DNA from: an uncultured Eubacteriales bacterium
Lineage (GTDB): Bacteria; Acidobacteriota; Aminicenantia; Aminicenantales; UBA8522
Assembly (NCBI GenBank): GCA_964558915.1
Contig: CAZLFV010000004.1
Span: 643 to 64,642, forward strand
Length of the DNA: 64,000 nucleotides
Reading direction: 5' to 3'
Within the stretch, counting starts at the first letter, position 1. Each line of letters starts with the position of its first letter. This document shows positions 2,521 through 49,157 of this stretch, piece by piece. The notes below the pieces were generated by a model, which ran no database searches, was not told the origin of the DNA, and saw only the letters and a list, made by a program, of their open reading frames with translations. A program made the position numbers and the translations under genes.

Positions 2521-3047
2521 TCTCCTTCTAAGGAAAATTTCCTTGTCGTGGAGTCGGGCATGACGACTTCCAACTCCCGCGGAGTGATTTTTCCGATCCG
2601 AATACCCTCCAATACTACTTCTCCCTCTATTACAGCCATTGGCTGGCCTTCCAGGATGACCAAAGCAGTTATTTTTTGTGAGGACCTGGTATATTCGATA
2701 AAGCCGATGTACCTAAGATTGACATTCAGGGTCGGAGGAGCTTGCGCTTGTTCCCCCTGAGTTTCAACCTGCTCCGAGGCAATTAACGGGGATGGCTCCT
2801 CGATGATCGGCCGCGCCGTGGCTCCAAACGATGGCTCCGGAGAAAATATGTTCCTTTTGGAGACGACAGGCGCGTCTCTCTGGACGCGGAGCAAGTCCAT
2901 CCTGATGAGACTCATTTTTGACCTTTCCCTGGAGGAGTTTTGGGCCGAGGGGAGAGCAACCGCCCCCGCGCCAACTCGGCCAACCCAGATAAAAACCCAA
3001 ACGACCGCCAGAATCTTAGATACTCTCATAGTATCCCGCCAGAACAA
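2517..3047 (-). CDS. PilP/GspC-like periplasmic pilus-assembly component (hypothetical)
   Basis: 176 aa. N-terminal membrane anchor (MRVSKILAVVWVFIWVG; the start may be Met7 at 3029). C-terminal beta-rich segment LRYIGFI..ALVILEGQPMAVIEGEVV is typical of PilP/GspC HR domains. The position between the PilO-like gene and the secretin, with 4-nt overlap to the secretin, supports the call. Confidence 0.5.
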   Translation of the reverse strand: MFWRDTMRVSKILAVVWVFIWVGRVGAGAVALPSAQNSSRERSKMSLIRMDLLRVQRDAPVVSKRNIFSPEPSFGATARPIIEEPSPLIASEQVETQGEQAQAPPTLNVNLRYIGFIEYTRSSQKITALVILEGQPMAVIEGEVVLEGIRIGKITPRELEVVMPDSTTRKFSLEGE

Positions 3048-3579
3048 CCCTGAGTTCGAGGACGTTTCCGCCGGCGCTGACCTTTATAAAGTCGATTTTC
3101 TCGAGGACAAGGAATTTCGGAAATCGTTCGACCGTGTCGAGGAATCTCTTAAGAATAGGATAGGATCCGGTAAAGGTAAAAGTGACATTGACCCGCCTAA
3201 AGCTCCCCTTTTCTAGGTTCATGTAGTTATACCGAATGGAGCGCAGGGCGATTCCGGATTCGGCCAGAATTTTTTGGAGGTCCACTCGGAGTTCGTTGAG
3301 GCCCTCAGTCTCTTTAAAAAAGTACCTTTTTTTCAGTTCGGCCATATCCTGCTCTGCCTGCTCCCATCTCGAGCATTCCTCAGCGCTGGCGCTTAGGGAT
3401 CCGGTCGCTTCGGAGGCGACTTTCTCCCTGACCTGGAGATCGCTTTCCAAACCAAGATACCGGCGCCGCTGACCCAGGGAGAAGAACACGAAAAAGGCCA
3501 GGACAAGAAGAAAGGCAAGGGCCAACACACGGAGAAGCCTTTTCTCGTTTTCGTTCAAAACGCTAAATATTTCTATCAT
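3016..3579 (-). CDS. PilO/GspM-like inner-membrane assembly protein
   Basis: 187 aa. A single N-terminal TM (LLRVLALAFLLVLAFFVFFSL) is followed by a coiled-coil and an alpha/beta C-terminal domain. Operon position is after the PilN-like gene. Confidence 0.55.
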   Translation of the reverse strand: MIEIFSVLNENEKRLLRVLALAFLLVLAFFVFFSLGQRRRYLGLESDLQVREKVASEATGSLSASAEECSRWEQAEQDMAELKKRYFFKETEGLNELRVDLQKILAESGIALRSIRYNYMNLEKGSFRRVNVTFTFTGSYPILKRFLDTVERFPKFLVLEKIDFIKVSAGGNVLELRVVLAGYYESI

Positions 3580-4120
3580 AGCTGACTGTGATTTCCGAAG
3601 TCAGTTGACCCTGTTCATTTCTCTCTTCGCTTTCCACCAGGGGCAGACTGAAGTTCTGGGCCTGAAGATTACTGATCAGTTTGAGAAGGTCATCCAGGCT
3701 TTCGGAGACGACCTTAAACCGAACCTGGACTCGGGAATCGTCGACGAGCGTGGGGGCCAAGGAGAGAATATAGCTTGGGCCGGGAAGGCAGTCTTCGAGC
3801 CGGGAAAAAAATCCGGTCCAGGAAAAGCTCTTCTTCAGGATAATGCGGTTGATCAGGTCAATTTTATCTTTGTCCCGACTCGCGGCCTCCTTGCTCTTGG
3901 CCACAAGCCGTGTCCTCTCTTTTTGATCCGCGAGGATGGCCTCATTGACTTTTTTAAGAGAGATTTTGACCGTTCTTTTCTTCACGTTGAAATGGAAAAA
4001 AAGGACAGCGGAAAAAAGGGCTAAAACAAGAAGCGCGGTTCCGACAAAGCCCGCCAGGACAAGAAAGAGCCTCCTGTTGCGCAAAGGGGAGGCCGCCAAG
4101 TTCAGATGAATTCGTTTCAT
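3563..4120 (-). CDS. PilN-like inner-membrane assembly protein
   Basis: 185 aa. N-terminus MKRIHLNLAASPLRNRR followed by a TM (LFLVLAGFVGTALLVLALFSAVLFF), which is the PilN-type architecture. 4-nt overlap with the upstream PilM-like gene. Confidence 0.6.
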   Translation of the reverse strand: MKRIHLNLAASPLRNRRLFLVLAGFVGTALLVLALFSAVLFFHFNVKKRTVKISLKKVNEAILADQKERTRLVAKSKEAASRDKDKIDLINRIILKKSFSWTGFFSRLEDCLPGPSYILSLAPTLVDDSRVQVRFKVVSESLDDLLKLISNLQAQNFSLPLVESEERNEQGQLTSEITVSYDRNI

Positions 4121-5070
4121 GGAATCTGCCCGGCAAGGGGCATGAGGATCTCTCGATCCGAAGACCGAACCTCAGCCAGGAGGGGAGACTCGATTGCCCT
4201 GATGGCCAGCGAGAACCTATTGGCTAATTGAGAAATGACCTCCTCCTGCCCCCCACCTAAACTTGAGCGCAACCAGAGGGAGCGAACCTTGCGCTTTTCT
4301 TTATCTTCGATAAAATGAACTGTATTTTCAATTTCCTTTGCTACCATCTCGATTTTTTGCTTCGCCTGAACCAGATTTAGGGGTTCAACGGCAAAAGGCT
4401 TGAAACGATAAAGCATCAGTTCGGATTGCGTGACGGCCGCAAGACTGAATGAATCCTCCTCAATGTTAGCCGCCATGAAGTCTTTCTCGATTTCCCAATC
4501 GACGAGGTTGAGAAGACTCAGAGAGGGGCTCGTCATGATCCCGACGTCAAGGCCAAGGCCGGCAAATAAATCTTCATATTCCTGGAGAACAGCTGTTTTG
4601 GCCAAGGAAACAACCACCTTGACCGAAGAGCTCGAAGTCATGACTTGATAGGAAAGGCGGTTCTCTTCTGGCAGAACGGGCATTTGTTTCTTGATCCGCC
4701 AGCGAAGGAGCTTCTCTCTTTCCCGCTCCGACGGAGGAAAGGACTCAAAGGAAAGGATAAAAACCTTCTGGCAGGCTTCCGGGATAAGGGCTGCCGCACT
4801 CTCCCTGGAGAACTTGAGCCCCTTCAGTCCCTTTTTTATGAGCCCGAGCAGAGTGGCCGCATCAGACATGTTCTTGCGGTCGAAATGCGGCTCGACAAGC
4901 CCTGCTGGCAAAGTCAGGGTCAAATGCTGTTTGATTGTTTTTTCCCTGACCGCGAGATGAATTGCGCTGATATAAGATGAAGACACTTGGACCACCACCT
5001 GGGGACAGGGGGGCACCGTGAGGTAATTCTTCAGTTTCTTTATGAGTTGAGCCATGCGTTCATTCGACAA
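4117..5070 (-). CDS. PilM-like actin-fold assembly protein
   Basis: 317 aa cytoplasmic protein. The VVVQVSSSYISAIHL segment resembles the PilM GIDIGSSSIK phosphate-1 region. Operon position is before the PilN/O-like genes. Confidence 0.6.
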   Translation of the reverse strand: MSNERMAQLIKKLKNYLTVPPCPQVVVQVSSSYISAIHLAVREKTIKQHLTLTLPAGLVEPHFDRKNMSDAATLLGLIKKGLKGLKFSRESAAALIPEACQKVFILSFESFPPSEREREKLLRWRIKKQMPVLPEENRLSYQVMTSSSSVKVVVSLAKTAVLQEYEDLFAGLGLDVGIMTSPSLSLLNLVDWEIEKDFMAANIEEDSFSLAAVTQSELMLYRFKPFAVEPLNLVQAKQKIEMVAKEIENTVHFIEDKEKRKVRSLWLRSSLGGGQEEVISQLANRFSLAIRAIESPLLAEVRSSDREILMPLAGQIP

Positions 5071-6670
5071 AAGTCACTTTGTTCAACTCTTTGAGACTGG
5101 TCACCCCGCCGAGCACTTTTTCCAGTCCCACCTCTCTCAGGAAGACAATGCCCTCGTCCTTGGCCCTTTTTTTCACCTCCGAGAGCGGCTTCCTCTCCAA
5201 GATCATTTCCCTGATCACGTCGGATAATTCCAGGAGCTCGGCGATAGCCGTTCTTCCCTGGTAACCCGTAAGATTGCAGTCGGAACAGCCTCGGGCTTCA
5301 TAGAATACCTGTTTCCTGTAGATGTCCGGCACCAAACCGGATTCGAGGAGCTGGTCGTCCCTGTATTTCACGGGATCTTTGCATCTCGGGCAAAGCACTC
5401 TCACCAGGCGTTGGGCCAGTATGCAGTTCAGGGCTGAAATGAAACTATAAGGGTCGACCTGCATGTGCAGAAAACGACCGATCACATCAAAGACGTTATT
5501 GGCGTGGACAGTGGTGAAGACAAGATGGCCCGTCAGAGCGGATTGGATGGCGATCTGGGCTGTTTCCGGGTCTCTGATCTCCCCCACCATGATCTTGTCG
5601 GGGTCATGCCTCAGGATGGACCTCAGCCCGCGAGCAAAGGTGAGCCCCTTTTTTTCGTTCACCGGGATCTGCGTGATGCCGTCGATCTGGTACTCGACCG
5701 GGTCTTCGATGGTGATGATTTTGTCCTCCGGCGATTTGATCTCCGTCAGTGCGGCGTACAGAGAGGTTGTCTTCCCGCTTCCCGTCGGCCCCGTGACGAG
5801 GATCATCCCGTAGGGCTGGGTGATGTACCGACGGAATTTTCGAAGCACATTGTCAGAAAAACCGAGGAGGTCCAGCTTTAACTCGGATATGGCCTCAGTA
5901 ATCATCTCCTTATCGAGGATGCGGATGACCGCATCCTCGCCATAGATGCTCGGCATGATAGAAACGCGGAAATCGATCGTCTTATCTTTGATCTTGAGCC
6001 GGAATCGTCCGTCCTGAGGGACGCGCCGTTCGGCAATATCCAGGTCGGACATGACCTTGATGCGGGAAATGATCGGCGACTGGAACTTCTTGTCAATCGG
6101 CTCCATCGCCTCATTCAGAACGCCGTCAATGCGGTACTTGATTTTGACTCCGTCTTCTCTGGACTCCACGTGGACATCGCTGGCCCTCTTCTGCACGGCC
6201 GTAAAAATGATGGTGTTGACCAATTTGATGATCGAACCATCCTGGTCAGCCAGTTTCTCCAGCGAAATGACCTCCTCCTCTTCTCCGCTCTCTTTCTCAA
6301 CCACCTGGACGATGAAACCTTCCGTGGCGTCCTTGAGGACCTGGAGGGCTGTTTCACTTTTGCGCAGGGCTTCCTGAATGGCCCATTTGGAAGCGGCATA
6401 AACCTGGACTTTTTTCCCCAGATAGGACTCGATCGAGTCGATCGTCCCGATGTCCGAAGGGTCGGCGATGGCAATTTTGAGGGAATTGTCATTCTCCTCC
6501 AGCGGAATGAAATTGGCCCGGTACAAAAACTCGGGAGGGAAAGACTGGACGAGGTCCCGGTTGACAGCGTGAGCCGAGAGATCGATATAAGGGACGTTGT
6601 ATCTTTCCGCGAGTTTCTTGGTTTCCGTTTCTTCGGCGAGGCTGATTCTTTTAGCGTCCTCTTTCTTCAT
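5060..6670 (-). CDS. GspE/PilB-family secretion ATPase (type IV pilus / T2SS assembly ATPase)
   Basis: 536 aa. N-terminal T2SSE_N/MshEN-like domain (LAERYNVPYIDLSAH..). Walker A GPTGSGKTT. Asp/His boxes. Tetracysteine CPRC..CSDC motif. Confidence 0.92.
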   Translation of the reverse strand: MKKEDAKRISLAEETETKKLAERYNVPYIDLSAHAVNRDLVQSFPPEFLYRANFIPLEENDNSLKIAIADPSDIGTIDSIESYLGKKVQVYAASKWAIQEALRKSETALQVLKDATEGFIVQVVEKESGEEEEVISLEKLADQDGSIIKLVNTIIFTAVQKRASDVHVESREDGVKIKYRIDGVLNEAMEPIDKKFQSPIISRIKVMSDLDIAERRVPQDGRFRLKIKDKTIDFRVSIMPSIYGEDAVIRILDKEMITEAISELKLDLLGFSDNVLRKFRRYITQPYGMILVTGPTGSGKTTSLYAALTEIKSPEDKIITIEDPVEYQIDGITQIPVNEKKGLTFARGLRSILRHDPDKIMVGEIRDPETAQIAIQSALTGHLVFTTVHANNVFDVIGRFLHMQVDPYSFISALNCILAQRLVRVLCPRCKDPVKYRDDQLLESGLVPDIYRKQVFYEARGCSDCNLTGYQGRTAIAELLELSDVIREMILERKPLSEVKKRAKDEGIVFLREVGLEKVLGGVTSLKELNKVTFVE

Positions 6671-6672
6671 GT

Positions 6673-7881
6673 TTATCTCGTGACTCTGATAATATTAAAA
6701 ATGGGAAGATAGACGGCCAGCAACATCAAGGCGACGAGGAGCCCCATGAAGATGATAATGACCGGTTCTATTAACGAGACAAACGTGTCGATTCTGGCTT
6801 GGATTTTTTCGTTATGGACATCGGCGACTTCCCTGAGCATGCCGTGCAAATTGGCCGAATTTTCTCCAATGCGCACCATATCGATGGCCAACTGGCTAAA
6901 AAAACCGGTCCGTCCCAAGGAATCAGATAGACTGCCTCCGTTCCTGATGTCATCCGGAACATGGCGCGTCCGTCTGGCCAGAAACTTGTTCGGAATGGCT
7001 TGAGAGGCGATGGGAAGGGCCTGGAGCAACGTGATGCCCGCCTCCAAGAGAAGTCCGAGAGTCCGGCTGAAGAGAGAAATGGCCGTTTCTGTCCAGACCG
7101 CCCGGGCATAGGGAATCTTGAGCTTGAGCCGATTCAGGAAGATATTCGTTTTCTCGTTCTTCTTAAGTTGCCCAAGGACCAGGATAAGGACGATCAGCAA
7201 GACAATCGCATAGGGCGTCAGTATTCTCAGGACTCCGGCAAAGCCGATCAGCAGACGAGTTATGCCAGGAAGCTGGGCCTCGAAATCCGTATAAAACCCG
7301 GAAAAACGTGGCAAAACAAAATTGACCAGAACGGCCATCAAAATCAGGGAGAAGACCAGGAGGAGCGTGGGATAGATGAGGGCAGCCCTGATCCGGGCCT
7401 TTGTCTGGGCAATCACTCGGGCGTAGTCGATATACCGCCCGATCAATCCAGGTAAATTCCCGCTTTGCTCTCCAGCCAAGAGAGAGGCGGTATAAACCTT
7501 GCCAAAATCCTTCTCAAACGGGCCGAAGGCTTCCGAAAGCGACTTGCCGCCCCGAATCTCTGCTTTCACCTTTACGAACATTTCCCTAAGATGGACATTC
7601 TTCGTCCGGCTGGCGATCAGCTCGATGCTCTTGAGGATAGGATAGCCAGCCCGGAGAAGAGCCATGAGCTCCTGATTAAACAGGATAAAGTCTTTGTCTT
7701 TGACTTTCTTCTCAAACGGAAGGGCCGGGAAAGGCAATTTTTTCCAGTCTTTCTTGACGGACAGGACGCAAAATCCTTCCGACTCAAAGTGCTTCCGGCA
7801 TTCCTCGACTGAGGGGGCCAGAAAAGACTGGTTAAGATAGCGACCGTCCTCGGTGGCCAAGCGGCAGAGGAAATAGGGCAT
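6673..7881 (-). CDS. GspF/PilC-family platform protein
   Basis: Two T2SSF repeats and three TM segments. The track ORF starts at a TTG (7893). I prefer the ATG at 7881 (MPYFLCRLATEDGRYL..), a typical PilC N-terminus. Confidence 0.9.
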   Translation of the reverse strand: MPYFLCRLATEDGRYLNQSFLAPSVEECRKHFESEGFCVLSVKKDWKKLPFPALPFEKKVKDKDFILFNQELMALLRAGYPILKSIELIASRTKNVHLREMFVKVKAEIRGGKSLSEAFGPFEKDFGKVYTASLLAGEQSGNLPGLIGRYIDYARVIAQTKARIRAALIYPTLLLVFSLILMAVLVNFVLPRFSGFYTDFEAQLPGITRLLIGFAGVLRILTPYAIVLLIVLILVLGQLKKNEKTNIFLNRLKLKIPYARAVWTETAISLFSRTLGLLLEAGITLLQALPIASQAIPNKFLARRTRHVPDDIRNGGSLSDSLGRTGFFSQLAIDMVRIGENSANLHGMLREVADVHNEKIQARIDTFVSLIEPVIIIFMGLLVALMLLAVYLPIFNIIRVTR

Positions 7882-7930
7882 TTTATATATCAACCGACTT
7901 TTTCGTCAATTTTGAGTCAATGACACGTTC

Positions 7931-40727: not shown

Positions 40728-42811
40728 ATGGTTCGCCGAGCCCACAACCGCCTGGTCAACGAAAAAAGCCTGTACCTCCGCCAGCACGCCGAGAATCCCG
40801 TCCAATGGTATCCCTGGTGCGATGAGGCCTTCGAGGCCGCCCGAAAGCAGGGGAAGCCCATTTTCTTATCGATTGGCTACTCCACCTGCCACTGGTGCCA
40901 CGTGATGGAAAGAGAGTCGTTCAGCGACGAAGAGGTTGCCAGCCTGATGAATGAGCTGTTCATCGCGATCAAAGTTGACCGGGAAGAGCGACCGGATATC
41001 GATTCTTTTTATATGGACGTCTGCCAGCTTCTCTTAGGAAGCGGGGCTGGCCTTTGACGGTGATTATGACACCCGATAAGAAGCCTTTCTTTGCCGGGAC
41101 TTATTTTCCGAAAGAGAGCCGCTTCGGTTTCATGGGCCTCAAAGAAGTTCTATCTCGCACAGCCCAAGCCTGGGGCCAGAGCACTTCCGAAATATTGAGT
41201 TCTGCACAAAAAATCCACGCAGTCCTGAACCGCCCGGTGCTTTCTCGAGGCGGGGATCTTCCGGCCGATATTTTGAAGAGAACGTTCGTCCAGCTGGCCG
41301 ACCATTTCGACCAGGAAAACGGAGGATTTGGCACTACCCCGAAATTCCCCTCGCCCCAACACCTGACATTTCTTCTCCGCTGGGCCAAGCGAACAAGCGA
41401 TGCAAGGCCTCTCGTAATGGTCGAAAAAACTTTGCGGGCTATGCGCAGGGGTGGGATTTATGATCATCTCGGGTTTGGATTTCACCGTTATTCCACGGAT
41501 GCACAATGGCTGGTTCCCCATTTTGAAAAGATGCTCTGCGACCAGGCCCTCCTGACCATGGCCTACACCGAGGCCTACGTGTTCACGGCCAAGGAGGAAT
41601 ACCGCCAGACTGCCGAAGAGGTCGCAGCATATGTGTTGCGGGATATGACTTCTGAGGAAGGCGGCTTCTTCGCGGCTGAAGATGCTGACAGTAACGGCAA
41701 AGAGGGAAAGTTTTATCTTTGGGAAGAGGAGGAAATCAGGAATATCCTAAAGCCCGCCGAAGCAGAGCTCGCCATCCGAGTTTTTAATATTCGGCCAGAT
41801 GGCAATGACGAAGAAAGGAAAATCGGACGAGCAAGAGAAAATATCCTTTGGGTCGCAGAGCAGCCCATTCATCCCGCGACGAAATCATCACTTCAAGGGA
41901 AGGCAGCTCAAGCCCGTCTTGCTCGGATTCGGGAAAAGCTATTCAGGGCCCGGGAAGAAAGACCCAGACCCCTCAAGGACACAAAAATATTGACCGACTG
42001 GAACGGACTGATGATCGCAGCCCTGGCCAAAGCGTCTCAGGCGTTTGATAGAGAAGACTACGCCGCAGCGGCCAGAAAAGCTGCTGATTTTGTTCGGGCA
42101 AAGATGATTGCTCAGGGAGAGCTTTATCACCGCTATATTGAAGGCGAGGTCAAAATTCCCGGTTTCCTGGATGATTATGCTTTCTTCATCTGGGGCCTCA
42201 TCGATCTTTACGAGACGATATTCGACCCCAGTTGTCTTGAATGGGCTCTGGAATTGACCGACCGGCTTCTCCTGAAGTTCTGGGATAAAAAGGAGGGCGG
42301 GTTCTTTTTGAGTTCTGAAGAAGCCCAGGATCTTCCCTTCCGGAGAAAAGAAATTTACGACAGCGCCGTCCCATCCGGGAATTCCGTAATGACAGCCAAT
42401 CTTCTCCGGCTCGGCCGGATCACCGGGCGAACAGAACTCGAAACAAAAGCACACGAACTTGCCAAAGCCTTTTCGCTGCGGATCGTTCAGGCGCCCATAG
42501 CCCATACGCAGCTCATGTGCGCTCTTGATTTCGCCAGAGGCCCATCTTATGAAATCGTGATTGTCGGCCAAGCCAGCGCAGAAGACACCGAGACTATACT
42601 CCGGAGCCTCCGTCGGAACTACATCCCTAATAAGGTCGTCCTGTTCCGGCCAGCTGAAGTTCAATCGCCGGAAATCTTAAAGTTCGCCCCCTATCTTAAA
42701 CCGATGACAGCTCTTGAGGGAAAGGCCACTGCCTATGTCTGCTCCAACTACCGCTGCCAGCTTCCCACAACAGAGTCCGCACAAATTTTGGCCCTGCTGA
42801 ATGCTGGCTAG
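40728..42811 (+). pseudogene. thioredoxin-domain DUF255 / YyaL-type (six-hairpin glycosidase-like) protein, split by a 1-nt frameshift
   Basis: ORF 40728-41057 (..[35 protein letters not shown]) and ORF 41054-42811 (..[19 protein letters not shown]..) are the two halves of one family. The conserved GSGGWPL is restored if the G4 run at 41043-41046 is G5. Confidence 0.85.
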
Positions 42812-44524: not shown

Positions 44525-44566
44525 TTGAACCCTCTTTTGCTAATAATTATAATCTCGTCACGTGAC
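44525..44566 (+). promoter_or_regulatory. near-consensus sigma-70 promoter plus 10-bp perfect palindrome (candidate operator) upstream of the cytochrome genes
   Basis: TTGAAC (44525-44530), 17 nt, TATAAT (44548-44553). GTCACGTGAC (44557-44566) starts 3 nt after the -10. The GGAGAGGAGAGGA SD precedes the ATG at 44582. Confidence 0.45.
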
Positions 44567-44581: not shown

Positions 44582-45946
44582 ATGAAAGCAACGGTTGCTG
44601 CCTTCATTTTTCTGACTCTCGGCGTGTTCTTCTTTCTCGGCCTGAATCCCGGCCAAAACATCAAGGCCGGCGACCAAGCCCTCGGGACACGGAAATATGA
44701 CGATTACGAAACCCCAAGATTTTGCGGAACCTCATGCCATACGGATTTTTACCAGCAGTGGACTCAGGCAATGATGTCCCAAGCCTACACTCATCACTGG
44801 GATGAAATCGAGTACTTTAAGCTGGCTGTTCCGCATGCCGAGAAGGACAGCGCAGTGGCCGGAGTCAAAGCAGGATGCAACGGATGCCACGCTCCCTTCG
44901 CTTTTCTCGCGGGCGATGTCCCCCCTCCCAAACCCGCCGTGAACAGCCGCGCCAACGAATCGGTCTCCTGCGACCTCTGTCATACTGTCACCGGGTTCGC
45001 CGGCGACACCCCTTTTAACTTTAACTGGATCTCCGAGCCCGGGAAGACTAAATACGGACCGCGCGAGGGCAAGAATTCGCCCGAGCACAACCTGATGAAA
45101 TCAGAATTCCTGGGGAAAGCCGAATTTTGCGGGACTTGTCACAACGAAAAGAGCCCCTACGGAGCCTGGGTCAAAGCCACTCAGCTGGAATGGAAGGAGG
45201 GGCCTTATGCGGCCCAGGGAGTGAAATGCCACGATTGCCACATGACCTATGCTTCGCTGAAGACAGCGTCCATGGGAAATTCCTACCCGGACGCCCGGCT
45301 CCATCTTTTTCACGGAGCGCACGACCCCGGCAAGGTCAGGGGGACGATCGAGCTGAGGATCCAGCCGGATATCAGAGAAGCCGAGCCCGGTGAGGCCGTC
45401 AAGTTCACCATCGCCCTTTTTAACCAGAAAACAGGTCATAAGTTTCCCACCGGCTCCGTAGAGGACCGGATTGTCTGGATGCATGTCGAGGCTGTGGACG
45501 CCAAGGGGAATGTGTACCATCTCCCCGTAGACAAGAAAGGGTTTGAAGGCGAAGAATACACCATAGGCGCGGATGTGCTGGCCTATCAGGATATGGGAAT
45601 CGCCCTAGGAGATGCAACCTTCAAGGGAGTGCAAAGAGACGGCATACCCGTGGGCGACCGGATTTTCCGAATGGCCTATTTCGACCCACAAGGACGGATG
45701 ACCATGCAGCAATGGAACACCAAATCCTTCGGCACAGACTATCGGATTGGCCCGCGGGAAACGAAGATCGAAACCTGCACATTCACGCTCCCTGATACAA
45801 TTCCGCCCGGGACGCTGAGAGTCACAGCCGTACTCAATTATCAGAAATTGGTCAAACCAGTAGCCGACTTCCTGGGAGTGCCGGATGATGAATCGGAAAT
45901 CATCATAGTCAACGAGCACTCGACCGCGGTCACAGTCCTTCAATAA
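44582..45946 (+). CDS. multihaem c-type cytochrome (five haem-binding motifs) with C-terminal beta-sandwich-like region
   Basis: ATG at 44582 (MKATVAAFIFLTLGVFFFLGL signal/anchor). Motifs are CGTSCH (CX3CH), CNGCH, CDLCH, CGTCH and CHDCH. The C-terminal half contains ..FNQKTGHKFPTGSVEDR.. Confidence 0.85.
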   Translation: MKATVAAFIFLTLGVFFFLGLNPGQNIKAGDQALGTRKYDDYETPRFCGTSCHTDFYQQWTQAMMSQAYTHHWDEIEYFKLAVPHAEKDSAVAGVKAGCNGCHAPFAFLAGDVPPPKPAVNSRANESVSCDLCHTVTGFAGDTPFNFNWISEPGKTKYGPREGKNSPEHNLMKSEFLGKAEFCGTCHNEKSPYGAWVKATQLEWKEGPYAAQGVKCHDCHMTYASLKTASMGNSYPDARLHLFHGAHDPGKVRGTIELRIQPDIREAEPGEAVKFTIALFNQKTGHKFPTGSVEDRIVWMHVEAVDAKGNVYHLPVDKKGFEGEEYTIGADVLAYQDMGIALGDATFKGVQRDGIPVGDRIFRMAYFDPQGRMTMQQWNTKSFGTDYRIGPRETKIETCTFTLPDTIPPGTLRVTAVLNYQKLVKPVADFLGVPDDESEIIIVNEHSTAVTVLQ

Positions 45947-45955
45947 GGTGACAAA

Positions 45956-47134
45956 ATGAAAAAATCAACCCTCATTTTCCTGGGAACTGTTCTCTTTCTT
46001 CAAGCGGCTGTGGTCCGGCTTCAGGCGATACCGGCCTTCGCCCGCAAATACACGATGACCTGCAAGACCTGTCACGCTCCCTTTCCCAAGCTCAAGAGCT
46101 ACGGGGAGGAGTTCGCGGCCAACGGCTATGTCATTAAAGACAAAGATACCCCGCGTTATTATGTCGATACAGGCGACAATTTTCTCTCCTTGCTCCGGGA
46201 AGCCCCGATCGCCTTACGGCTGGAGGGATACGTCACTTATGATTATTCCCACACCAAACAATTGGATTTCACAGCTCCGTACTTGATCAAATTCCTCTCG
46301 GGGGGCGAGATCACTAAGAACATTTCCTACTATTTCTATTTTTTCTTTTCCGAGGTTGGGGAGATAGTCGGACTCGAAGACGCCTTCCTGATGTTTAACA
46401 GCCTGTTCGGTTCCAGCCTGGACTTCTATATCGGTCAGTTTCAAGTATGTGACCCGGTCTTCAAGCGAGAGTGCCGCCTCAGCTTCGAGGACTACGCGAT
46501 TTATACGGCCAAACCGGGCACCTCCCAAATTACTCTAACCTACGACAGGGGGGTCATGTTGAATTATGAGCTTCCCACGAAGACAGACCTCTGGCTGGAA
46601 ATTGTCAACGGCAGCGGAATTGACCCGGCCAATCCCTTCGGAAACTTCGATTCGGACAAGTACAAGAATCCTGTTTTCAGGGCCTCCCAGGAAATCGGCG
46701 CCAATTTCCGGCTGGGCGGGTTGGGCTACCTCGGCAAGGAAGAGCAGGACAGCATCGTCAATTCCGTGTGGATGGTGGGTATCGACGCCACTGTATCCGC
46801 CACAGCTCTTGAACTCAACCTTCAATACCTGGAGCGCAGCGACAGCAACCCCTATTTCGTTGTTTCTCTTATGGAAGGCCCGAAAATCAAGACGAGAGGC
46901 GGGTTTGCGGAGCTGATCTTTCTCCCTAAAGGGGATGACAGCCGCTGGTATCTCGTGGGACTCTTCAACCACGTCAGGTCAGGCATCAAAGAGCTGGACT
47001 ACACTTCGGCCACGCTCCACTATGGCCGGCTCTTGAGAAGAAACATCCGGGCCACGGCTGAACTTACTTATGTTCTTGACAGCATTTATAACGAGTATGC
47101 CCAGGTCGAGGCCGGACTGATCCTGGCTTTTTGA
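45956..47134 (+). CDS. outer-membrane beta-barrel protein with an N-terminal CXXCH haem motif
   Basis: 392 aa. Signal peptide ..VVRLQA|IPAF. CKTCH at residues 36-40 in IPAFARKYTMTCKTCHAPFPKLKSYGEEFAANGY. The remainder shows alternating amphipathic beta-strand patterns and ends ..AGLILAF (C-terminal Phe, an OMP signature). Confidence 0.7.
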   Translation: MKKSTLIFLGTVLFLQAAVVRLQAIPAFARKYTMTCKTCHAPFPKLKSYGEEFAANGYVIKDKDTPRYYVDTGDNFLSLLREAPIALRLEGYVTYDYSHTKQLDFTAPYLIKFLSGGEITKNISYYFYFFFSEVGEIVGLEDAFLMFNSLFGSSLDFYIGQFQVCDPVFKRECRLSFEDYAIYTAKPGTSQITLTYDRGVMLNYELPTKTDLWLEIVNGSGIDPANPFGNFDSDKYKNPVFRASQEIGANFRLGGLGYLGKEEQDSIVNSVWMVGIDATVSATALELNLQYLERSDSNPYFVVSLMEGPKIKTRGGFAELIFLPKGDDSRWYLVGLFNHVRSGIKELDYTSATLHYGRLLRRNIRATAELTYVLDSIYNEYAQVEAGLILAF

Positions 47135-47242
47135 GGCCGCGAAGAAATTCGCTGAGGACCCGCGCGTCTGCATTTTTTAGGAGCCGAAGATCTCTATTCT
47201 CCTTAACATTTTTATTTGTTTCTCGATATACTCTTATGTGAA

Positions 47243-47800
47243 ATGGACGAAAAGGAGAACCGTTTGATCGAACTCGTCCTGCACGGAAACGTCGAGGCTT
47301 TTGAGCCCCTGATCACTCCCTATCGGAAGACTATCCTGAGCCTGGCCTACCGGCTCAGCCGGAACCGGGAAGACGCTCAAGAAATCTCTCAGGACGCCCT
47401 GTTGCGGGCCTTTCGATACTTGCGCACTTACGATAAAAAAAGAAGCTTTCGGAACTGGCTGCTCCAGATTCTCGTCAATGCCTGGCGAAGTCGGCAGAAA
47501 CCGAAGCCCGAGCGAGAGAGCCCGGAGCAATTTCTTCAGCGAAGCTCTGATGATGACCCGCAACAGAGACACTTGCAGGAGGAAGCCAGGACTCAACTCC
47601 TGGACTGTCTCGCTTGCCTGAGCCCGCGCGAAAAAGAAGTTGTTCTCCTGCGGGATATCGAAGACCGGAGTATTAAAGATACGGCCACGATCCTAGGCTC
47701 TTCGCCGCTTTCTGTCCGCGTCCATCTTTGCTCAGCACGGAAAAAGCTCAAGGACAGAATCAAGGAGAAATTCCCCTTTCTTATAGAGGACCGGAGATGA
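47243..47800 (+). CDS. ECF-type RNA polymerase sigma factor (sigma-70 family, group 4)
   Basis: The ATG at 47243 is preferred over the track's TTG at 47216. Region 2 (..TILSLAYRLSRNREDAQEISQDALLRAF..) and region 4 HTH (SIKDTATILGSSPLSVRVHLCSARKKL) are present. Confidence 0.9.
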   Translation: MDEKENRLIELVLHGNVEAFEPLITPYRKTILSLAYRLSRNREDAQEISQDALLRAFRYLRTYDKKRSFRNWLLQILVNAWRSRQKPKPERESPEQFLQRSSDDDPQQRHLQEEARTQLLDCLACLSPREKEVVLLRDIEDRSIKDTATILGSSPLSVRVHLCSARKKLKDRIKEKFPFLIEDRR

Positions 47801-48429
47801 CCTGTAAACAACGCAAGAAGCATATCCCTCTTCTCGCCGGAGGCGACCTCCCGGAAAGAAAAGCCCGGCGGTTGAGAAGGCATCTCAAGGCCTGCGAGGC
47901 GTGCCGGAAAGAACTCAAAGAATATGAAGCGATCTTGGCAGGCATAAAATCCTTCGCCCTCGAGGAAGAGCGGGATTGGGAAGAAGAGGAATGGCAGAGT
48001 CTCCTGCAAAAAGTGACCGCCGAAAAACCCGGGCCGTGCGTCTTGTCTCTCGGCGTCCAGACAAGAACGGCCTGGGCCTACGGATTCCTCGTCTTGCTCG
48101 TCTTGGGCCTGACCGCTTTTCTATTCTGGACGATTTTGAGTCATCGAAAAACTGTCGGGGTTATCAAGAACATCACTATTACTCAAGCGCAGCCCGCTCG
48201 GACATTTCAGGCCGGAGAGACCGTGGTGCCGCAAATCGAAGACGCCCCTTTTGTAGCGAGAGCACCGAGGCTCCGCCGCGAAAAACTCGAGCCAACGTTT
48301 CAGGCCGCGCTTCCTGAGGAAGTCTCGCCTCAAGAACGGCTCAGTTTGACTCTCATTTCCAGTAAATCAGGACTCCGAGTCCACTGGATTTTCGATAAAA
48401 ATTTTGAATGGAAGGAGACCGGAAGATGA
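47797..48429 (+). CDS. anti-sigma factor (zf-HC2 type), single-pass membrane protein
   Basis: The ATG at 47797 overlaps the sigma stop as ATGA. HLKACEACRKEL is the H-x3-C-x2-C motif. TM is AWAYGFLVLLVLGLTAFLFWTIL. About 100 aa are periplasmic. Confidence 0.75.
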   Translation: MTCKQRKKHIPLLAGGDLPERKARRLRRHLKACEACRKELKEYEAILAGIKSFALEEERDWEEEEWQSLLQKVTAEKPGPCVLSLGVQTRTAWAYGFLVLLVLGLTAFLFWTILSHRKTVGVIKNITITQAQPARTFQAGETVVPQIEDAPFVARAPRLRREKLEPTFQAALPEEVSPQERLSLTLISSKSGLRVHWIFDKNFEWKETGR

Positions 48430-49157
48430 AAAATTCGATCGCAACCGCTTCTTTCCTCGCCATGGCCTTGTTTCTTGTCCTCGTCGCTACGGGCTTGGCT
48501 CAAGAAACTCCGCCGAAGATGGTCCAGGAGATCGTCAAGCTCAAGTATTCCAAGAGCAACGTGCTCCTCAGCGGAGGGATCCTGTACACTTTCCTCAGTC
48601 CCCAGGGACGCATTAACTCGAACCCGGAAGCCGGACTGATTACGATCAGCGACTTCCCCGAGAACGTCAAAAAAATTCTCGCACTGATTCGCGAGCTCGA
48701 CGTAAAGCCGGCCGATATCCAGTTCACGATACAGCTTGTTCTGGGGTCGGCCGCCAGTGAAGAACAAGTGGATGAGTCTCTCAAAAATGATCCCGTCATC
48801 AGGGAGCTCAAAACCTTGTTGAGCTACAAGTCCTTCGGCCTGCTGGACACGTCCTTCATCCGCGCTATCGACGGCGAGGTCTCCGAGGTCACCATGGGAA
48901 AGGACGCCGAACTCCGGCTCGAGCTCCGGCCCAAGTTTATCAAGGAAGAAAAAGACCAGCTCATTCAAGTGGAGGCCCAGCTGACCAGAAGGGGCGGGAT
49001 CATCGAAAGCGGAGGTAACGCCCGCCGGGAATCAACAGTTTTGCTCACCGCCCACTTGACCATGAAATCCGGTGAAAAAACGGTCGTCGGCGTCTCCAAG
49101 ATGAACGGCGGAGAGAAGGGGCTGATCCTCATCATCTCGGGCAAAATCACGGGTTAA
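48426..49157 (+). CDS. periplasmic protein with Secretin_N (NolW-like) domain and a truncated secretin-like C-terminus ('mini-secretin')
   Basis: The ATG at 48426 overlaps the anti-sigma stop as ATGA. Signal peptide. IVKLKYSKSNVLL..RINSNPEAGLITISDFPENVKKILALIRELDVKPADIQFTIQLV matches the Secretin_N pattern. At only 243 aa it is too short for a secretin channel. Confidence 0.65.
   Translation: MKNSIATASFLAMALFLVLVATGLAQETPPKMVQEIVKLKYSKSNVLLSGGILYTFLSPQGRINSNPEAGLITISDFPENVKKILALIRELDVKPADIQFTIQLVLGSAASEEQVDESLKNDPVIRELKTLLSYKSFGLLDTSFIRAIDGEVSEVTMGKDAELRLELRPKFIKEEKDQLIQVEAQLTRRGGIIESGGNARRESTVLLTAHLTMKSGEKTVVGVSKMNGGEKGLILIISGKITG

What the first reader, a model, noticed from the sequence alone, without database searches (positions are those of the whole stretch)
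44582..47134. Pentahaem cytochrome paired with a haem-motif-bearing outer-membrane beta-barrel: candidate two-gene porin-cytochrome conduit
Seen: gene 1 (454 aa) has an N-terminal hydrophobic signal/anchor and five haem-c motifs in its first ~230 residues, followed by a beta-rich C-terminal half. Nine nt downstream, gene 2 (392 aa) has a cleavable signal peptide, a CKTCH motif 12 residues into the mature protein (IPAFARKYTMTCKTCHAPFPKLKSYGEEFAANGY), then ~340 aa of alternating amphipathic strands ending in ..AGLILAF (terminal Phe, typical of BAM substrates). Established: extracellular electron-transfer conduits (MtrCAB, Geobacter Pcc) combine a porin with separate periplasmic and surface multihaem cytochromes, and in those systems the porin itself has no haem. 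Inference: here the barrel may carry its own haem on an N-terminal plug and receive electrons from the pentahaem partner. That would make a minimal trans-outer-membrane redox module, or alternatively a haem-gated porin. I recognise the N-terminal motif only vaguely and cannot name a characterised family.
Basis: partly seen in the sequence, partly recalled or inferred. Interest (0 to 1): 0.72.

Follow-up and report, generated by a model that had tools for sequence, protein, structure and literature searches.

The report
Cyc2-type haem porin with pentahaem partner
The haem-bearing outer-membrane barrel belongs to the known Cyc2 "fused cytochrome-porin" family (the iron-oxidation marker already reported in Aminicenantes), and the less ordinary point is that this subfamily is almost always encoded right after one conserved five-haem periplasmic cytochrome.

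Summary
Two co-directional genes lie 9 nt apart: gene 1 (44582-45946, 454 aa) has five haem sites, and gene 2 (45956-47134, 392 aa) has one N-terminal CXXCH followed by a beta-barrel.

Gene 2 is not an unknown kind of protein. It carries the published Cyc2-defining motif (AIPAFARKY-x3-CKTCH-x3-PKL). Its model is a confident 16-stranded porin (pLDDT 91). Its family aligns over the full length with Cyc2-type proteins of Zetaproteobacteria/Gallionellaceae, Acidithiobacillus and Nitrospira (hhalign 99.3-100%). FeGenie users have already reported cyc2 in Aminicenantes.

Gene 1 belongs to the pentahaem "PHC" family (Thermochromatium tepidum cytochrome c552, PDB 5ZE8; Geobacter ExtKL/MccSep). It lacks the Sec/Cys active site of MccSep.

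The possibly new point is the pairing. Gene 2 falls in a distinct short (~390-400 aa) Cyc2 subfamily found in Aminicenantes, Ignavibacteria, Bacteroidales and Thermoanaerobaculia. Gene 1 sits directly upstream in 20 of 28 genome loci of that subfamily, and in none of about 90 other Cyc2 loci. Gene 2 follows gene 1 in 75 of 75 informative metagenome loci. No other neighbour is conserved.

Most likely this is a two-protein electron path between outer membrane and periplasm. The direction of flow and the substrate are unknown. The barrel is too small to sheath gene 1, so it is not an Mtr-like conduit. Interest is moderate to low.

The parts
44525..44553 (+). Promoter-like site (TTGAAC-17 nt-TATAAT, 10/12) upstream of gene 1
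   Evidence: Consensus scan only: 4 sites found in the region against 1.6 expected from shuffles. Not evidence of function.
44582..45946 (+). Gene 1: secreted pentahaem c-type cytochrome of the PHC family (T. tepidum c552 / ExtKL-like), 454 aa
   Evidence: ORF. Weak Pfam multihaem hits. A profile of the family hits PDB 5ZE8 at E=1e-9, collinear in three stretches. All 26 of 26 family members hit the NCBIfam ExtKL model, far below its cut-off.
44582..44671 (+). Gene 1 N-terminal hydrophobic signal peptide or anchor (aa 1-30, ...NIKA|GD); no lipobox Cys
   Evidence: Read directly from the sequence. This is the least conserved part of the family. The cleavage site was not predicted with a dedicated tool.
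44723..44740 (+). Haem site 1, CGTSCH (CX3CH variant)
   Evidence: It aligns with CXXCH in Bacteroidales-type orthologues, and the Cys, Cys and His are invariant.
44876..44890 (+). Haem site 2, CNGCH
   Evidence: invariant.
44969..44983 (+). Haem site 3, CDLCH
   Evidence: invariant.
45128..45142 (+). Haem site 4, CGTCH
   Evidence: invariant.
45227..45241 (+). Haem site 5, CHDCH
   Evidence: invariant.
45329..45943 (+). Gene 1 C-terminal haem-free domain (aa ~250-454), presumed Ig-like beta-sandwich, with an invariant G285-H286-K287-x-P289 loop
   Evidence: This is the most conserved part of the protein (column conservation 0.83-0.89 over aa 276-400). No Pfam hit. Its end aligns weakly with the C-terminal domain of 5ZE8. 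The Ig-like fold is inferred from descriptions of MccSep and cable-bacteria PHCs (10.1101/2025.11.18.688581, PMC11976967) and was not modelled here.
45956..47134 (+). Gene 2: Cyc2-type fused monohaem cytochrome-porin, 392 aa
45956..46027 (+). Gene 2 signal peptide (aa 1-24, ...LQA|IPAF)
   Evidence: Read directly from the sequence. It forms a helix at aa 3-23 in the model.
46025..46093 (+). Cyc2 signature: A-I-P-A-F-A-R-K-Y, three residues, CKTCH (46061-46075), three residues, P-K-L
   Evidence: Matches the published consensus AXPXFAR[Q/K][T/Y] ... CXXCH ... PXL (PMC8406198). P26, C36, C39, H40 and P44 are invariant, and A24, F28, R30 and L46 are at least 90% conserved across 46 diverse representatives.
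46208..47131 (+). 16-stranded beta-barrel (aa 85-392) with a long internal loop (aa 164-195) and a C-terminal Phe
   Evidence: AlphaFold2 with the diverse alignment gives pLDDT 91.4 and pTM 0.87, with 16 long strands. The best Foldseek PDB matches are 16-stranded trimeric porins OmpT/OmpU/PorB/Omp32/OmpC (probability 1.0, TM 0.6-0.69).

Best explanation
This is a self-contained two-gene operon for an electron-transfer module between the outer membrane and the periplasm.

- Gene 2 is a Cyc2-type fused cytochrome-porin. It is a 16-stranded outer-membrane barrel whose N-terminal ~60 residues bind one c-haem.
- Gene 1 is a soluble or N-terminally tethered periplasmic pentahaem cytochrome of the PHC family, with a five-haem cap and a conserved C-terminal domain.
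- Proposed working: a small dissolved redox species, most plausibly Fe2+/Fe3+ complexes as in characterised Cyc2, reaches the single haem in or at the narrow pore. That haem exchanges electrons with the pentahaem protein docked at the periplasmic mouth. The pentahaem protein relays or buffers electrons to or from the rest of the periplasmic and inner-membrane redox chain.
- In this subfamily the pentahaem protein takes the place that small mono- or dihaem cytochromes (Cyc1-type) hold next to classical cyc2.

Shown here: the identity and architecture of both proteins, conservation of all haem sites, and tight, specific synteny.

Inferred: haem attachment, physical contact between the two proteins, the substrate, and the direction of flow. 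Direction is undecided. I lean slightly towards a reversible or outward (reductive) use, because the hosts are mostly anaerobic or facultative organoheterotrophs, some related to Fe(III) reducers.
For: Gene 2 is a Cyc2-family protein:
- It has the published defining motif, a single CXXCH, a PXL, and a length of at least 365 aa.
- The motif is conserved in 45 of 46 representatives.
- The model is a 16-strand barrel with pLDDT 91, and its best structural matches are 16-strand porins.
- Full-length profile-profile matches: 99.3% (E 2e-20) to Zetaproteobacteria/Gallionellaceae/Sideroxydans proteins, 99.6% (E 1.5e-23) to the Acidithiobacillus-type group, and 100% (E 6e-49) to the Nitrospira/Acidobacteria 'FARKY' group.

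Gene 1 is a PHC-family protein:
- PDB 5ZE8 at E 1e-9, collinear over the protein.
- The ExtKL model is hit by 26 of 26 family members.
- All five haem sites are invariant, and there are five invariant and one near-invariant non-motif His, enough for bis-His ligation of all haems.

The two genes form a module:
- A gene 1 orthologue (58-78% identity) lies immediately upstream, on the same strand, mostly 8-111 nt away, in 20 of 28 loci of the gene 2 subfamily. It is absent from the ~90 other Cyc2-like loci in a GTDB sample.
- Gene 2 follows gene 1 in 75 of 75 informative metagenome loci.
- No other gene is conserved around the pair.
- These are the only two cytochrome c genes in the 64-kb window.

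Wider pattern: 54 of 90 other Cyc2-like loci have a neighbouring haem-motif ORF, mostly monohaem. A periplasmic cytochrome partner next to cyc2 is therefore common.
Against: - No experiment or complex model links the two proteins. Synteny alone does not prove contact.
- The position of the haem domain relative to the barrel could not be read from the model output.
- No conserved sixth haem ligand (His or Met) is visible in the gene 2 family.
- The only characterised enzyme of the PHC family (MccSep) is catalytic, not a shuttle. The haem-free C-terminal domain of gene 1 is its most conserved part, which is unexpected for a simple wire.
- A Gemmatimonadota branch of the same Cyc2 subfamily lacks gene 1, so the barrel can work without it.
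- All biochemically tested Cyc2 proteins oxidise Fe(II), so an outward direction has no direct precedent.
Confidence: 0.68

Rival explanations
1. Classical Cyc2 role. The pair is an Fe(II)-oxidation module, used for energy, for nitrate- or oxygen-linked Fe(II) oxidation, or for Fe(II) detoxification. Electrons flow inward from Fe2+ through the porin haem to the pentahaem cytochrome and on to a terminal reductase or oxidase. This is a directional special case of the best explanation.
For: - Every biochemically characterised Cyc2 (A. ferrooxidans Cyc2, Leptospirillum Cyt572, Mariprofundus Cyc2PV-1) oxidises Fe(II) (PMC8406198, PMC7029218).
- Gene 2 is homologous to these groups over its full length.
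- The literature already reads cyc2 in Aminicenantes as potential iron oxidation.
Against: - The carriers (Aminicenantes, Ignavibacteria, Melioribacteraceae, Bacteroidales) are not known lithotrophic iron oxidisers.
- A five-haem partner related to a cytochrome titled 'low-potential' (Chen et al. 2019, title cited in PMC11976967) is not the usual acceptor for Fe(II)-derived electrons.
- Nothing in the window, such as an oxidase or a bc1 complex, supports this role.
Confidence: 0.3
2. Enzyme plus dedicated channel. Gene 1 is a periplasmic multihaem reductase or oxidase acting on a small inorganic substrate, analogous to the PHC-family polysulfide reductase MccSep. Gene 2 mainly serves to let that substrate or product cross the outer membrane, much as ExtI is encoded next to ExtKL in Geobacter.
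For: - Gene 1's best family-level matches are ExtKL/MccSep and 5ZE8.
- MccSep is a periplasmic pentahaem enzyme whose route for substrate entry is unknown (10.1101/2025.11.18.688581). Its gene lies in a cluster with the outer-membrane porin gene extI (PMC11976967).
- The haem-free C-terminal domain of gene 1 is the most conserved part and holds an invariant G-H-K-x-P loop. In MccSep the catalytic Sec sits in a D-G-U-P loop of the C-terminal domain. This resemblance is untested.
Against: - Gene 1 has no in-frame TGA and no conserved Cys outside the haem motifs, so it lacks both MccSep-defining residues, Sec/Cys325 and the haem-ligating Cys239.
- It scores 40 bits against a 250-bit cut-off.
- There are enough invariant His residues for all five haems to be bis-His.
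- An invariant haem site in the porin is unnecessary for a plain channel.
Confidence: 0.15
3. MtrAB/Pcc-like porin-cytochrome conduit. The pentahaem protein is threaded through the barrel to span the outer membrane and contact solid minerals or electrodes.
For: - A multihaem gene is adjacent to an outer-membrane barrel gene.
- There are weak Pfam/NCBIfam hits of gene 1 to MtrC/OmcA and DmsE-type models.
Against: - The barrel has 16 strands and resembles narrow general porins, against 26 strands in MtrB/PioB (PMC8406198).
- A 454-aa two-domain cytochrome cannot pass through it.
- Hits to Mtr-type models are 13-26 bits against cut-offs of 192-209.
- There is no lipoprotein surface cytochrome in the cassette.
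Confidence: 0.03

Closest known systems
Cyc2 / Cyt572 fused cytochrome-porin family (A. ferrooxidans Cyc2, Leptospirillum Cyt572, Mariprofundus Cyc2PV-1); most similar to the 'FARKY' sequences of Nitrospira and Acidobacteria, which probably correspond to published Cluster 3
   Same: - Signal peptide, single N-terminal CXXCH, AXPXFAR[Q/K][T/Y] and PXL motifs, 16-strand porin barrel and C-terminal aromatic residue.
- Full-length profile homology.
   Different: - Shorter: ~390-400 aa against ~420-520 aa in the other similarity groups.
- Forms its own similarity cluster.
- Hosts are anaerobic or facultative heterotroph lineages rather than lithotrophic iron oxidisers.
- Encoded behind a pentahaem PHC gene rather than next to small mono- or dihaem cytochromes.
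- The FeGenie cluster assignment and the function were not tested.
Cyc2-Cyc1 (and rusticyanin) pathway of iron oxidisers
   Same: An outer-membrane monohaem porin is encoded beside a periplasmic c-type cytochrome that is thought to take over the electrons (PMC5566968). A neighbouring haem-motif ORF is seen in 54 of 90 other Cyc2-like loci.
   Different: The partner here is a 454-aa five-haem, two-domain protein of an unrelated family. It lies upstream, and no further pathway genes are linked.
Pentahaem cytochrome (PHC) family: T. tepidum low-potential cytochrome c552 (PDB 5ZE8), Geobacter ExtKL/MccSep and Gsu2801, cable-bacteria sPHC/lPHC
   Same: - Size of ~430-450 aa.
- Five haem sites in the N-terminal half in the same order, followed by a haem-free C-terminal domain.
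- Significant collinear sequence match to 5ZE8 and to the ExtKL model.
   Different: - Only distant similarity: 40 bits against the 250-bit ExtKL cut-off.
- No Sec/Cys active site and no Cys haem ligand.
- The first haem site is CX3CH in this lineage.
- Coupled to a Cyc2-type porin, which no paper retrieved in these searches reports for other PHCs.
Geobacter extHIJKL cluster (ExtI outer-membrane barrel + ExtKL)
   Same: A PHC-family pentahaem gene is encoded beside an outer-membrane beta-barrel gene (PMC11976967).
   Different: - ExtI is described as a haem-free porin-like protein. From my own recollection of Otero et al. 2018, not checked here, it has about 21 strands.
- The cluster also has a rhodanese-like lipoprotein and other genes.
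- Here the barrel is a 16-strand Cyc2 with its own haem, and the cassette has only two genes.
MtrCAB / MtoAB / PioAB porin-cytochrome complexes
   Same: The general idea of moving electrons across the outer membrane with a barrel plus c-type cytochromes.
   Different: These use a 26-strand haem-free barrel sheathing a decahaem cytochrome. Here there is a 16-strand barrel with one covalent haem site and a separate periplasmic pentahaem protein.

Membership tests
Cyc2 fused cytochrome-porin (criteria of Keffer et al. 2021 / FeGenie) | N-terminal signal peptide | tested here: met
   MKKSTLIFLGTVLFLQAAVVRLQA|IPAF has a basic n-region, a hydrophobic core and an AXA-like site. This was judged by eye; no dedicated predictor was available.
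Cyc2 fused cytochrome-porin (criteria of Keffer et al. 2021 / FeGenie) | Exactly one CXXCH haem-binding motif, near the N-terminus | tested here: met
   CKTCH at aa 36-40 is the only one. It is conserved in 45 of 46 diverse representatives.
Cyc2 fused cytochrome-porin (criteria of Keffer et al. 2021 / FeGenie) | AXPXFAR[Q/K][T/Y] motif just upstream of the CXXCH (stated to be unique to Cyc2) | tested here: met
   A24-I-P-A-F-A-R-K-Y32, then three residues, then C36. The same three-residue spacing was required by the scan pattern and matched in loci from Zetaproteobacteria, Gallionellaceae, Sideroxydans and Acidithiobacillus.
Cyc2 fused cytochrome-porin (criteria of Keffer et al. 2021 / FeGenie) | PXL motif 4 residues downstream of the CXXCH | tested here: met
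   H40-A-P-F-P44-K-L46. P44 is invariant and L46 is at least 90% conserved.
Cyc2 fused cytochrome-porin (criteria of Keffer et al. 2021 / FeGenie) | Length of at least 365 aa | tested here: met
   392 aa.
Cyc2 fused cytochrome-porin (criteria of Keffer et al. 2021 / FeGenie) | C-terminal 16-stranded porin-like beta-barrel | tested here: met
   The AF2 model has pLDDT 91.4 and 16 long strands over aa 85-391. The top Foldseek matches are 16-strand porins at probability 1.0.
Cyc2 fused cytochrome-porin (criteria of Keffer et al. 2021 / FeGenie) | Sequence homology to accepted Cyc2 proteins | tested here: met
   - hhalign of the gene 2 family against motif-bearing proteins of Zetaproteobacteria/Gallionellaceae/Sideroxydans: 99.3%, E 2e-20, 347 columns.
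- Against the Acidithiobacillus-type group: 99.6%, E 1.5e-23.
- Against the Nitrospira/Acidobacteria group: 100%, E 6e-49.
- Caveat: the comparison sequences come from MAGs of those taxa, not from the purified proteins themselves.
Cyc2 fused cytochrome-porin (criteria of Keffer et al. 2021 / FeGenie) | Score above the FeGenie Cyc2 HMM cut-off and assignment to Cluster 1, 2 or 3 | not testable with these tools
   The FeGenie HMMs are not available here. A Cluster 3-like assignment is inferred from the FARKY motif and the closest profile match.
Cyc2 fused cytochrome-porin (criteria of Keffer et al. 2021 / FeGenie) | Covalent haem, outer-membrane location, Fe(II) oxidase activity | not testable with these tools
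   Needs expression, haem staining, fractionation and activity assays.
MtrAB / PioAB / Pcc porin-cytochrome complex | Large (about 20-26-strand) haem-free barrel that can sheath a multihaem cytochrome | tested here: not met
   The barrel has 16 strands and carries its own haem site, compared with 26 strands in MtrB.
MtrAB / PioAB / Pcc porin-cytochrome complex | Periplasmic MtrA/DmsE-type deca- or octahaem partner | tested here: not met
   Gene 1 has five haems. The DmsE and OmcA/MtrC models score 13-21 bits against cut-offs of 192-209.
PHC pentahaem cytochrome family (T. tepidum c552 5ZE8, ExtKL, cable-bacteria PHC) | Five c-haem sites in an N-terminal domain | tested here: met
   Five invariant sites at aa 48-220. 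Sites 1-3 and 4-5 align with the sites of 5ZE8.
PHC pentahaem cytochrome family (T. tepidum c552 5ZE8, ExtKL, cable-bacteria PHC) | Significant sequence relationship to a member of known structure | tested here: met
   The family profile hits 5ZE8 at E 1e-9 (41 bits) in three collinear stretches. The ExtKL HMM is hit by 26 of 26 members, best E 2e-17.
PHC pentahaem cytochrome family (T. tepidum c552 5ZE8, ExtKL, cable-bacteria PHC) | C-terminal Ig-like beta-sandwich with a long beta-hairpin | tested here: inconclusive
   There is only a weak alignment of aa 382-443 to the C-terminal part of 5ZE8 and no Pfam hit.
MccSep (ExtKL) polysulfide-reducing selenoprotein | Conserved Sec/Cys catalytic residue (U325) in the C-terminal domain | tested here: not met
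   The ORF is uninterrupted and ends in TAA. The only non-motif Cys (C399) is not conserved.
MccSep (ExtKL) polysulfide-reducing selenoprotein | Cys distal ligand of haem 2 (C239) | tested here: not met
   There is no conserved Cys outside the haem motifs.
MccSep (ExtKL) polysulfide-reducing selenoprotein | NCBIfam equivalog cut-off (250 bits) | tested here: not met
   40.1 bits.
NrfA / NrfB nitrite-reductase cytochromes | Significant match to Nrf models or structures; CXXCK active-site haem for NrfA | tested here: not met
   There is no CXXCK. NrfA structures score only E 0.1-3 over ~25 residues. The NrfB model is hit by 1 of 26 members at E 0.001.

The most novel reading that the evidence does not exclude
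The cassette is a minimal outer-membrane redox module made of just two proteins: a short Cyc2-type haem porin and a PHC pentahaem cytochrome. It would be horizontally mobile, since gene 1 is 77-78% identical between the Aminicenantes-type window and Ignavibacteriaceae. It would give fermentative or facultatively anaerobic heterotrophs (Aminicenantes, Ignavibacteria, Bacteroidales) a route to dump electrons on, or take them from, dissolved iron, humics or other small redox shuttles. A large share of environmental 'cyc2' hits would then not be iron oxidases, and iron-oxidation marker surveys would be miscounting them. About a quarter of a motif-based GTDB sample falls in this subfamily (25 of 97 full-length sequences).
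Probability: 0.3. Interest if true: 0.6.

Novelty: new variant of a known kind. Interest (0 to 1): 0.38.

Why it matters
- cyc2 is the most widely used genetic marker for microbial iron oxidation. Its many homologues in organisms not known to oxidise iron are an acknowledged open question (PMC5566968, PMC7005843).
- Here a large, coherent Cyc2 subfamily is locked to one specific pentahaem partner in anaerobic heterotroph lineages. At least one carrier is a cultured isolate (Marinilabilia salmonicolor strain MSL42, locus L015).
- That gives a concrete two-gene target for genetics and biochemistry to ask what non-classical Cyc2 proteins do.
- It also places a PHC-family cytochrome, whose only characterised relative is a sulfur-reducing selenoenzyme, in a defined outer-membrane context.
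- For this window alone the practical result is an annotation: gene 2 is a Cyc2-like fused cytochrome-porin, and gene 1 is a PHC-family pentahaem cytochrome.

Tried and rejected
- Pfam, NCBIfam and PDB sequence searches with gene 2 alone gave nothing usable. There were only spurious HlyE hits at E about 0.01-0.1. A family-profile search of PDB also gave nothing.
- The first AlphaFold2 run used a shallow alignment of close homologues (at least 61% identity). It was poor (pLDDT 57) and was discarded in favour of the run with diverse representatives.
- The search for related loci with the diverse gene 2 alignment failed because no stretch was conserved enough. I used a degenerate DNA pattern for the Cyc2 motif instead.
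- Pfam on the C-terminal half of gene 1 alone gave no hit.
- I looked for papers linking Cyc2 with ExtKL/PHC, or describing the pair in Ignavibacteria, Melioribacter, Bacteroidales or Aminicenantes. None was found. The library covers open-access papers only.
- I checked whether the downstream ECF sigma, anti-sigma and secretin-N-like genes, or the upstream GHL10-like gene, belong to the system. They are not conserved next to the pair in 20 other genomes.
- I considered NrfA/NrfB, NapC/NirT, MtrA/DmsE and OmcA/MtrC identities for gene 1. All are far below family cut-offs.
- I could not align gene 1 with MccSep directly, because no sequence was at hand and its structure is not in the PDB copy. 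The equivalence of invariant H286 (G-H-K-x-P) with Sec325 (D-G-U-P) is therefore only a lead.
The Aminicenantes/Acidobacteriota origin is inferred from the names attached to the closest homologues.

Full report
**1. The observation**

The region holds two co-directional ORFs.

Gene 1 runs 44582-45946 and is 454 aa.
- A Shine-Dalgarno-like GGAGAGGAGAGG precedes its ATG.
- A promoter-like TTGAAC-17-TATAAT lies at 44525-44553 (this is a consensus match only).
- The N-terminus is hydrophobic and has no lipobox cysteine.
- It has four CXXCH motifs (aa 99, 130, 183, 216) plus CGTSCH at aa 48.
It aligns with a canonical CXXCH in Bacteroidales-type orthologues, and its Cys, Cys and His are invariant. 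Five haems is a fair count.

Gene 2 starts 9 nt after the TAA stop of gene 1. It runs 45956-47134 and is 392 aa.
- It has a signal-peptide-like N-terminus ending LQA|IPAF.
- It has one CKTCH at aa 36-40.
- It ends in ...LILAF.

These are the only two ORFs in the 64-kb window that contain CXXCH.

**2. What gene 2 is**

Pfam, NCBIfam and PDB sequence searches are silent for gene 2. The protein nevertheless has thousands of homologues (2,946 hits; 1,464 clusters at 50% identity). All are unnamed. The closest come from Aminicenantes/Acidobacteriota MAGs.

The N-terminal sequence AIPAFARKY-TMT-CKTCH-APF-PKL matches the consensus that Keffer et al. (mBio 2021, PMC8406198) give as defining and unique for Cyc2: AXPXFAR[Q/K][T/Y] upstream of a single CXXCH, and PXL four residues downstream. 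Cyc2 is the fused cytochrome-porin iron oxidase of Acidithiobacillus, Leptospirillum (as Cyt572) and neutrophilic iron oxidisers. The motif is present in 45 of 46 full-length representatives, down to 28% identity.

A first AlphaFold2 model from close homologues was poor. With a diverse alignment the model is confident (pLDDT 91.4, pTM 0.87) and shows:
- 16 long beta-strands from aa 85 to 391;
- short helices in the N-terminal ~60 residues;
- a long internal loop at aa 164-195.

The best structural matches in PDB are 16-stranded trimeric porins: OmpT/OmpU, PorB, Omp32 and OmpC/F (probability 1.0). This is the architecture published for Cyc2.

It retrieved loci from Zetaproteobacteria, Mariprofundus, Gallionellaceae, Sideroxydans, Acidithiobacillus, Chlorobiaceae and Nitrospira defluvii, which are the expected Cyc2 carriers, plus many other taxa.

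Profile-profile comparison of the gene 2 family with these groups gives full-length matches:

| Comparison group | Probability | E-value |
|---|---|---|
| Zetaproteobacteria/Gallionellaceae/Sideroxydans (published Cluster 1 taxa) | 99.3% | 2e-20 |
| Acidithiobacillus-type group (Cluster 2 taxa) | 99.6% | 1.5e-23 |
| 'FARKY' group of Nitrospira and Acidobacteria | 100% | 6e-49 |

The FARKY group is probably Cluster 3, which holds Cyt572.

Gene 2 is therefore a member of the Cyc2 family. cyc2 has already been reported in Aminicenantes genomes by FeGenie users (PMC7005843; PMC7914226). The idea of an N-terminal cytochrome 'plug' in the barrel is also in the literature (White et al. 2016, as cited in PMC5566968).

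**3. A distinct subfamily**

All-against-all clustering of 97 full-length motif-bearing proteins puts gene 2 in its own group of 23-25 sequences.
- They are shorter than the rest (~364-430 aa, mostly 390-400).
- They come from Ignavibacteriaceae, Ignavibacterium album (a MAG), Melioribacteraceae, Kapabacteria, many Bacteroidales/Bacteroidota, Thermoanaerobaculia, Gemmatimonadota and a few others.
- One carrier is a cultured isolate, Marinilabilia salmonicolor MSL42.

Against the classical Cyc2 proteins, gene 2 alone scores only 15-50 bits, mostly through the N-terminus.

**4. What gene 1 is**

Single-sequence hits are weak multihaem matches (Cytochrome_C7, C554 and MtrC domain II/IV at 24-27 bits). 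The best NCBIfam hit is ExtKL, at 40 bits against a cut-off of 250.

A profile of 26 orthologues matches PDB 5ZE8 ('cytochrome c552', 435 aa) at E 1e-9. The match has three collinear stretches covering haem sites 1-3, haem sites 4-5 and the C-terminal end. All 26 members hit the ExtKL model, with a best E of 2e-17.

- 5ZE8 is the penta-haem low-potential cytochrome c552 of Thermochromatium tepidum (Chen et al. 2019, cited in PMC11976967).
- ExtKL is MccSep, a periplasmic homotetrameric pentahaem selenoprotein that reduces polysulfide. It has an alpha-helical five-haem cap and an Ig-like C-terminal stem (10.1101/2025.11.18.688581).
- Cable-bacteria workers group these proteins as a 'PHC family'.

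Gene 1 fits this family in size, haem order and two-domain layout. It lacks what defines MccSep: there is no in-frame TGA, no conserved cysteine outside the haem motifs, and hence no Sec/Cys325 and no Cys239 haem ligand.

Five invariant non-motif histidines (H71, H169, H241, H247, H286) and one near-invariant histidine (H85) are enough for bis-His ligation of all five haems.

Unexpectedly, the haem-free C-terminal half is the most conserved part of the protein. It contains an invariant G-H-K-x-P loop at aa 285-289. Whether this loop corresponds to the D-G-U-P catalytic loop of MccSep could not be tested.

**5. The pair**

- tblastn of gene 1 against the 120 motif loci finds an orthologue in 20 of them, at 58-78% identity. 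All 20 are in the gene 2 subfamily. In every case it lies immediately upstream on the same strand, mostly 8-111 nt away.
- None of the ~90 other Cyc2-like loci has it.
- Within the subfamily, the Gemmatimonadota branch and a few peripheral members lack gene 1. The Gemmatimonadota loci instead have a ~160-190-aa monohaem ORF just downstream.
- In the reciprocal test, the 80 best metagenome loci found with the gene 1 profile include 75 with gene 2 directly downstream. The other five have no downstream DNA to check.
- Contig lengths and adjacent locus tags in the protein-search tables agree with this.
- Clustering of all flanking ORFs shows that nothing else is conserved around the pair. In particular, the ECF sigma, anti-sigma and secretin-N-like genes and the GHL10-like gene that flank it in this window are not conserved next to the pair elsewhere.
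- Gene 1 is more conserved than gene 2 (median 79% against 60% identity in the metagenome set), as expected for a cofactor-rich soluble protein compared with a porin.
- Gene 1 is 77-78% identical between the window and Ignavibacteriaceae. This suggests the cassette moves horizontally, but that is an inference.

**6. Mechanism**

The best-supported reading is a two-component electron path between outer membrane and periplasm. The single haem of the Cyc2-type porin reacts with a small dissolved redox species at or in the narrow pore. Iron is the obvious candidate, by analogy with Cyc2. The pentahaem protein takes electrons from the porin haem, or delivers them to it, at the periplasmic face.

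This mirrors the Cyc2-Cyc1 arrangement of iron oxidisers. In line with that, 54 of 90 other Cyc2-like loci have a neighbouring haem-motif ORF. The difference here is a five-haem partner of a different family.

What is shown here:
- the family identity and architecture of both proteins;
- conservation of every haem site;
- specific synteny.

What is inferred:
- haem attachment;
- contact between the two proteins;
- the substrate;
- the direction of electron flow.

An MtrAB-like conduit is excluded by the 16-strand barrel.

Rival readings:
- Classical inward Fe(II) oxidation, which is a directional version of the same model.
- An 'enzyme plus channel' reading, in which gene 1 is catalytic like MccSep. 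This is weakened by the missing active-site residues and by the invariant haem site in the porin.

**7. Novelty and score**

The haem-bearing porin that prompted the finding belongs to a known, named family that has already been noticed in this phylum.

In the open-access literature searched I found no description of two things:
- a large, short Cyc2 subfamily in anaerobic heterotroph lineages;
- its near-obligate coupling to a PHC-family pentahaem cytochrome as a two-gene cassette.

This is a variant of a known kind. It is useful for interpreting 'cyc2' hits in metagenomes, and it can be tested in cultured carriers. Interest is moderate to low (0.38).

Noticed in passing
window 40728-42811 (+), break at about 41040-41056: A DUF255/Thioredox_DsbH-family gene is split into two reading frames. 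ORF 40728-41057 covers Pfam profile positions 1-101, and ORF 41054-42811 continues at positions 105-162. The break lies in a GCGGGGCTGG run. It is a 1-nt indel, so either a pseudogene or an assembly error.
   Followed up: partly
window 47216-49157 (+): An ECF sigma factor (47216-47800), an overlapping zf-HC2 anti-sigma factor (47728-48429) and a small secretin-N-like secreted protein (48408-49157) lie directly downstream of gene 2. They are not conserved next to the cytochrome pair in 20 other genomes, so they are probably unrelated to it.
   Followed up: partly
window 343-7893 (-): A run of co-directional ORFs of 725, 176, 187, 185, 317, 536 and 406 aa, in window order, has the size pattern of a type IV pilus or type II secretion assembly cluster (secretin, PilP/O/N/M-like, ATPase, platform protein). 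No family search was run.
   Followed up: no
whole window: No Rfam family reaches its gathering score anywhere in the 64 kb. Only the two genes of the finding contain CXXCH.
   Followed up: yes
L004, L014, L023, L031, L050 (Gemmatimonadota / Longimicrobiales loci): The Gemmatimonadota branch of the same short Cyc2 subfamily lacks the upstream pentahaem gene. Four of the five loci (not L004) instead have a ~160-190-aa monohaem ORF immediately downstream on the same strand, which may be a different periplasmic partner.
   Followed up: partly
L058 (Ignavibacteriaceae), L081 ('Eubacteriales' MAG), P0096/P0296 ('Clostridiales' MAG): Gene 1 orthologues are 77-78% identical between the Aminicenantes-type window and Ignavibacteriaceae. 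This hints at horizontal transfer of the cassette. MAGs labelled Clostridiales or Eubacteriales that carry this Gram-negative outer-membrane cassette are probably mis-binned or mislabelled.
   Followed up: no
window 45434-45448 (gene 1 aa 285-289): An invariant G-H-K-x-P loop sits in the haem-free C-terminal domain of gene 1, inside the most conserved stretch of the protein. It resembles the D-G-U-P catalytic loop described for MccSep. The equivalence was not tested because no MccSep sequence or gene 1 model was available.
   Followed up: no
L003 and L068 (Mariprofundus sp. / Zetaproteobacteria): These Zetaproteobacteria loci carry a FARKY-type (not FARQT-type) Cyc2 motif. This agrees with the published note that some Zetaproteobacteria have a Cluster 3 cyc2 in addition to Cluster 1. 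L003 forms a singleton in the similarity clustering.
   Followed up: no
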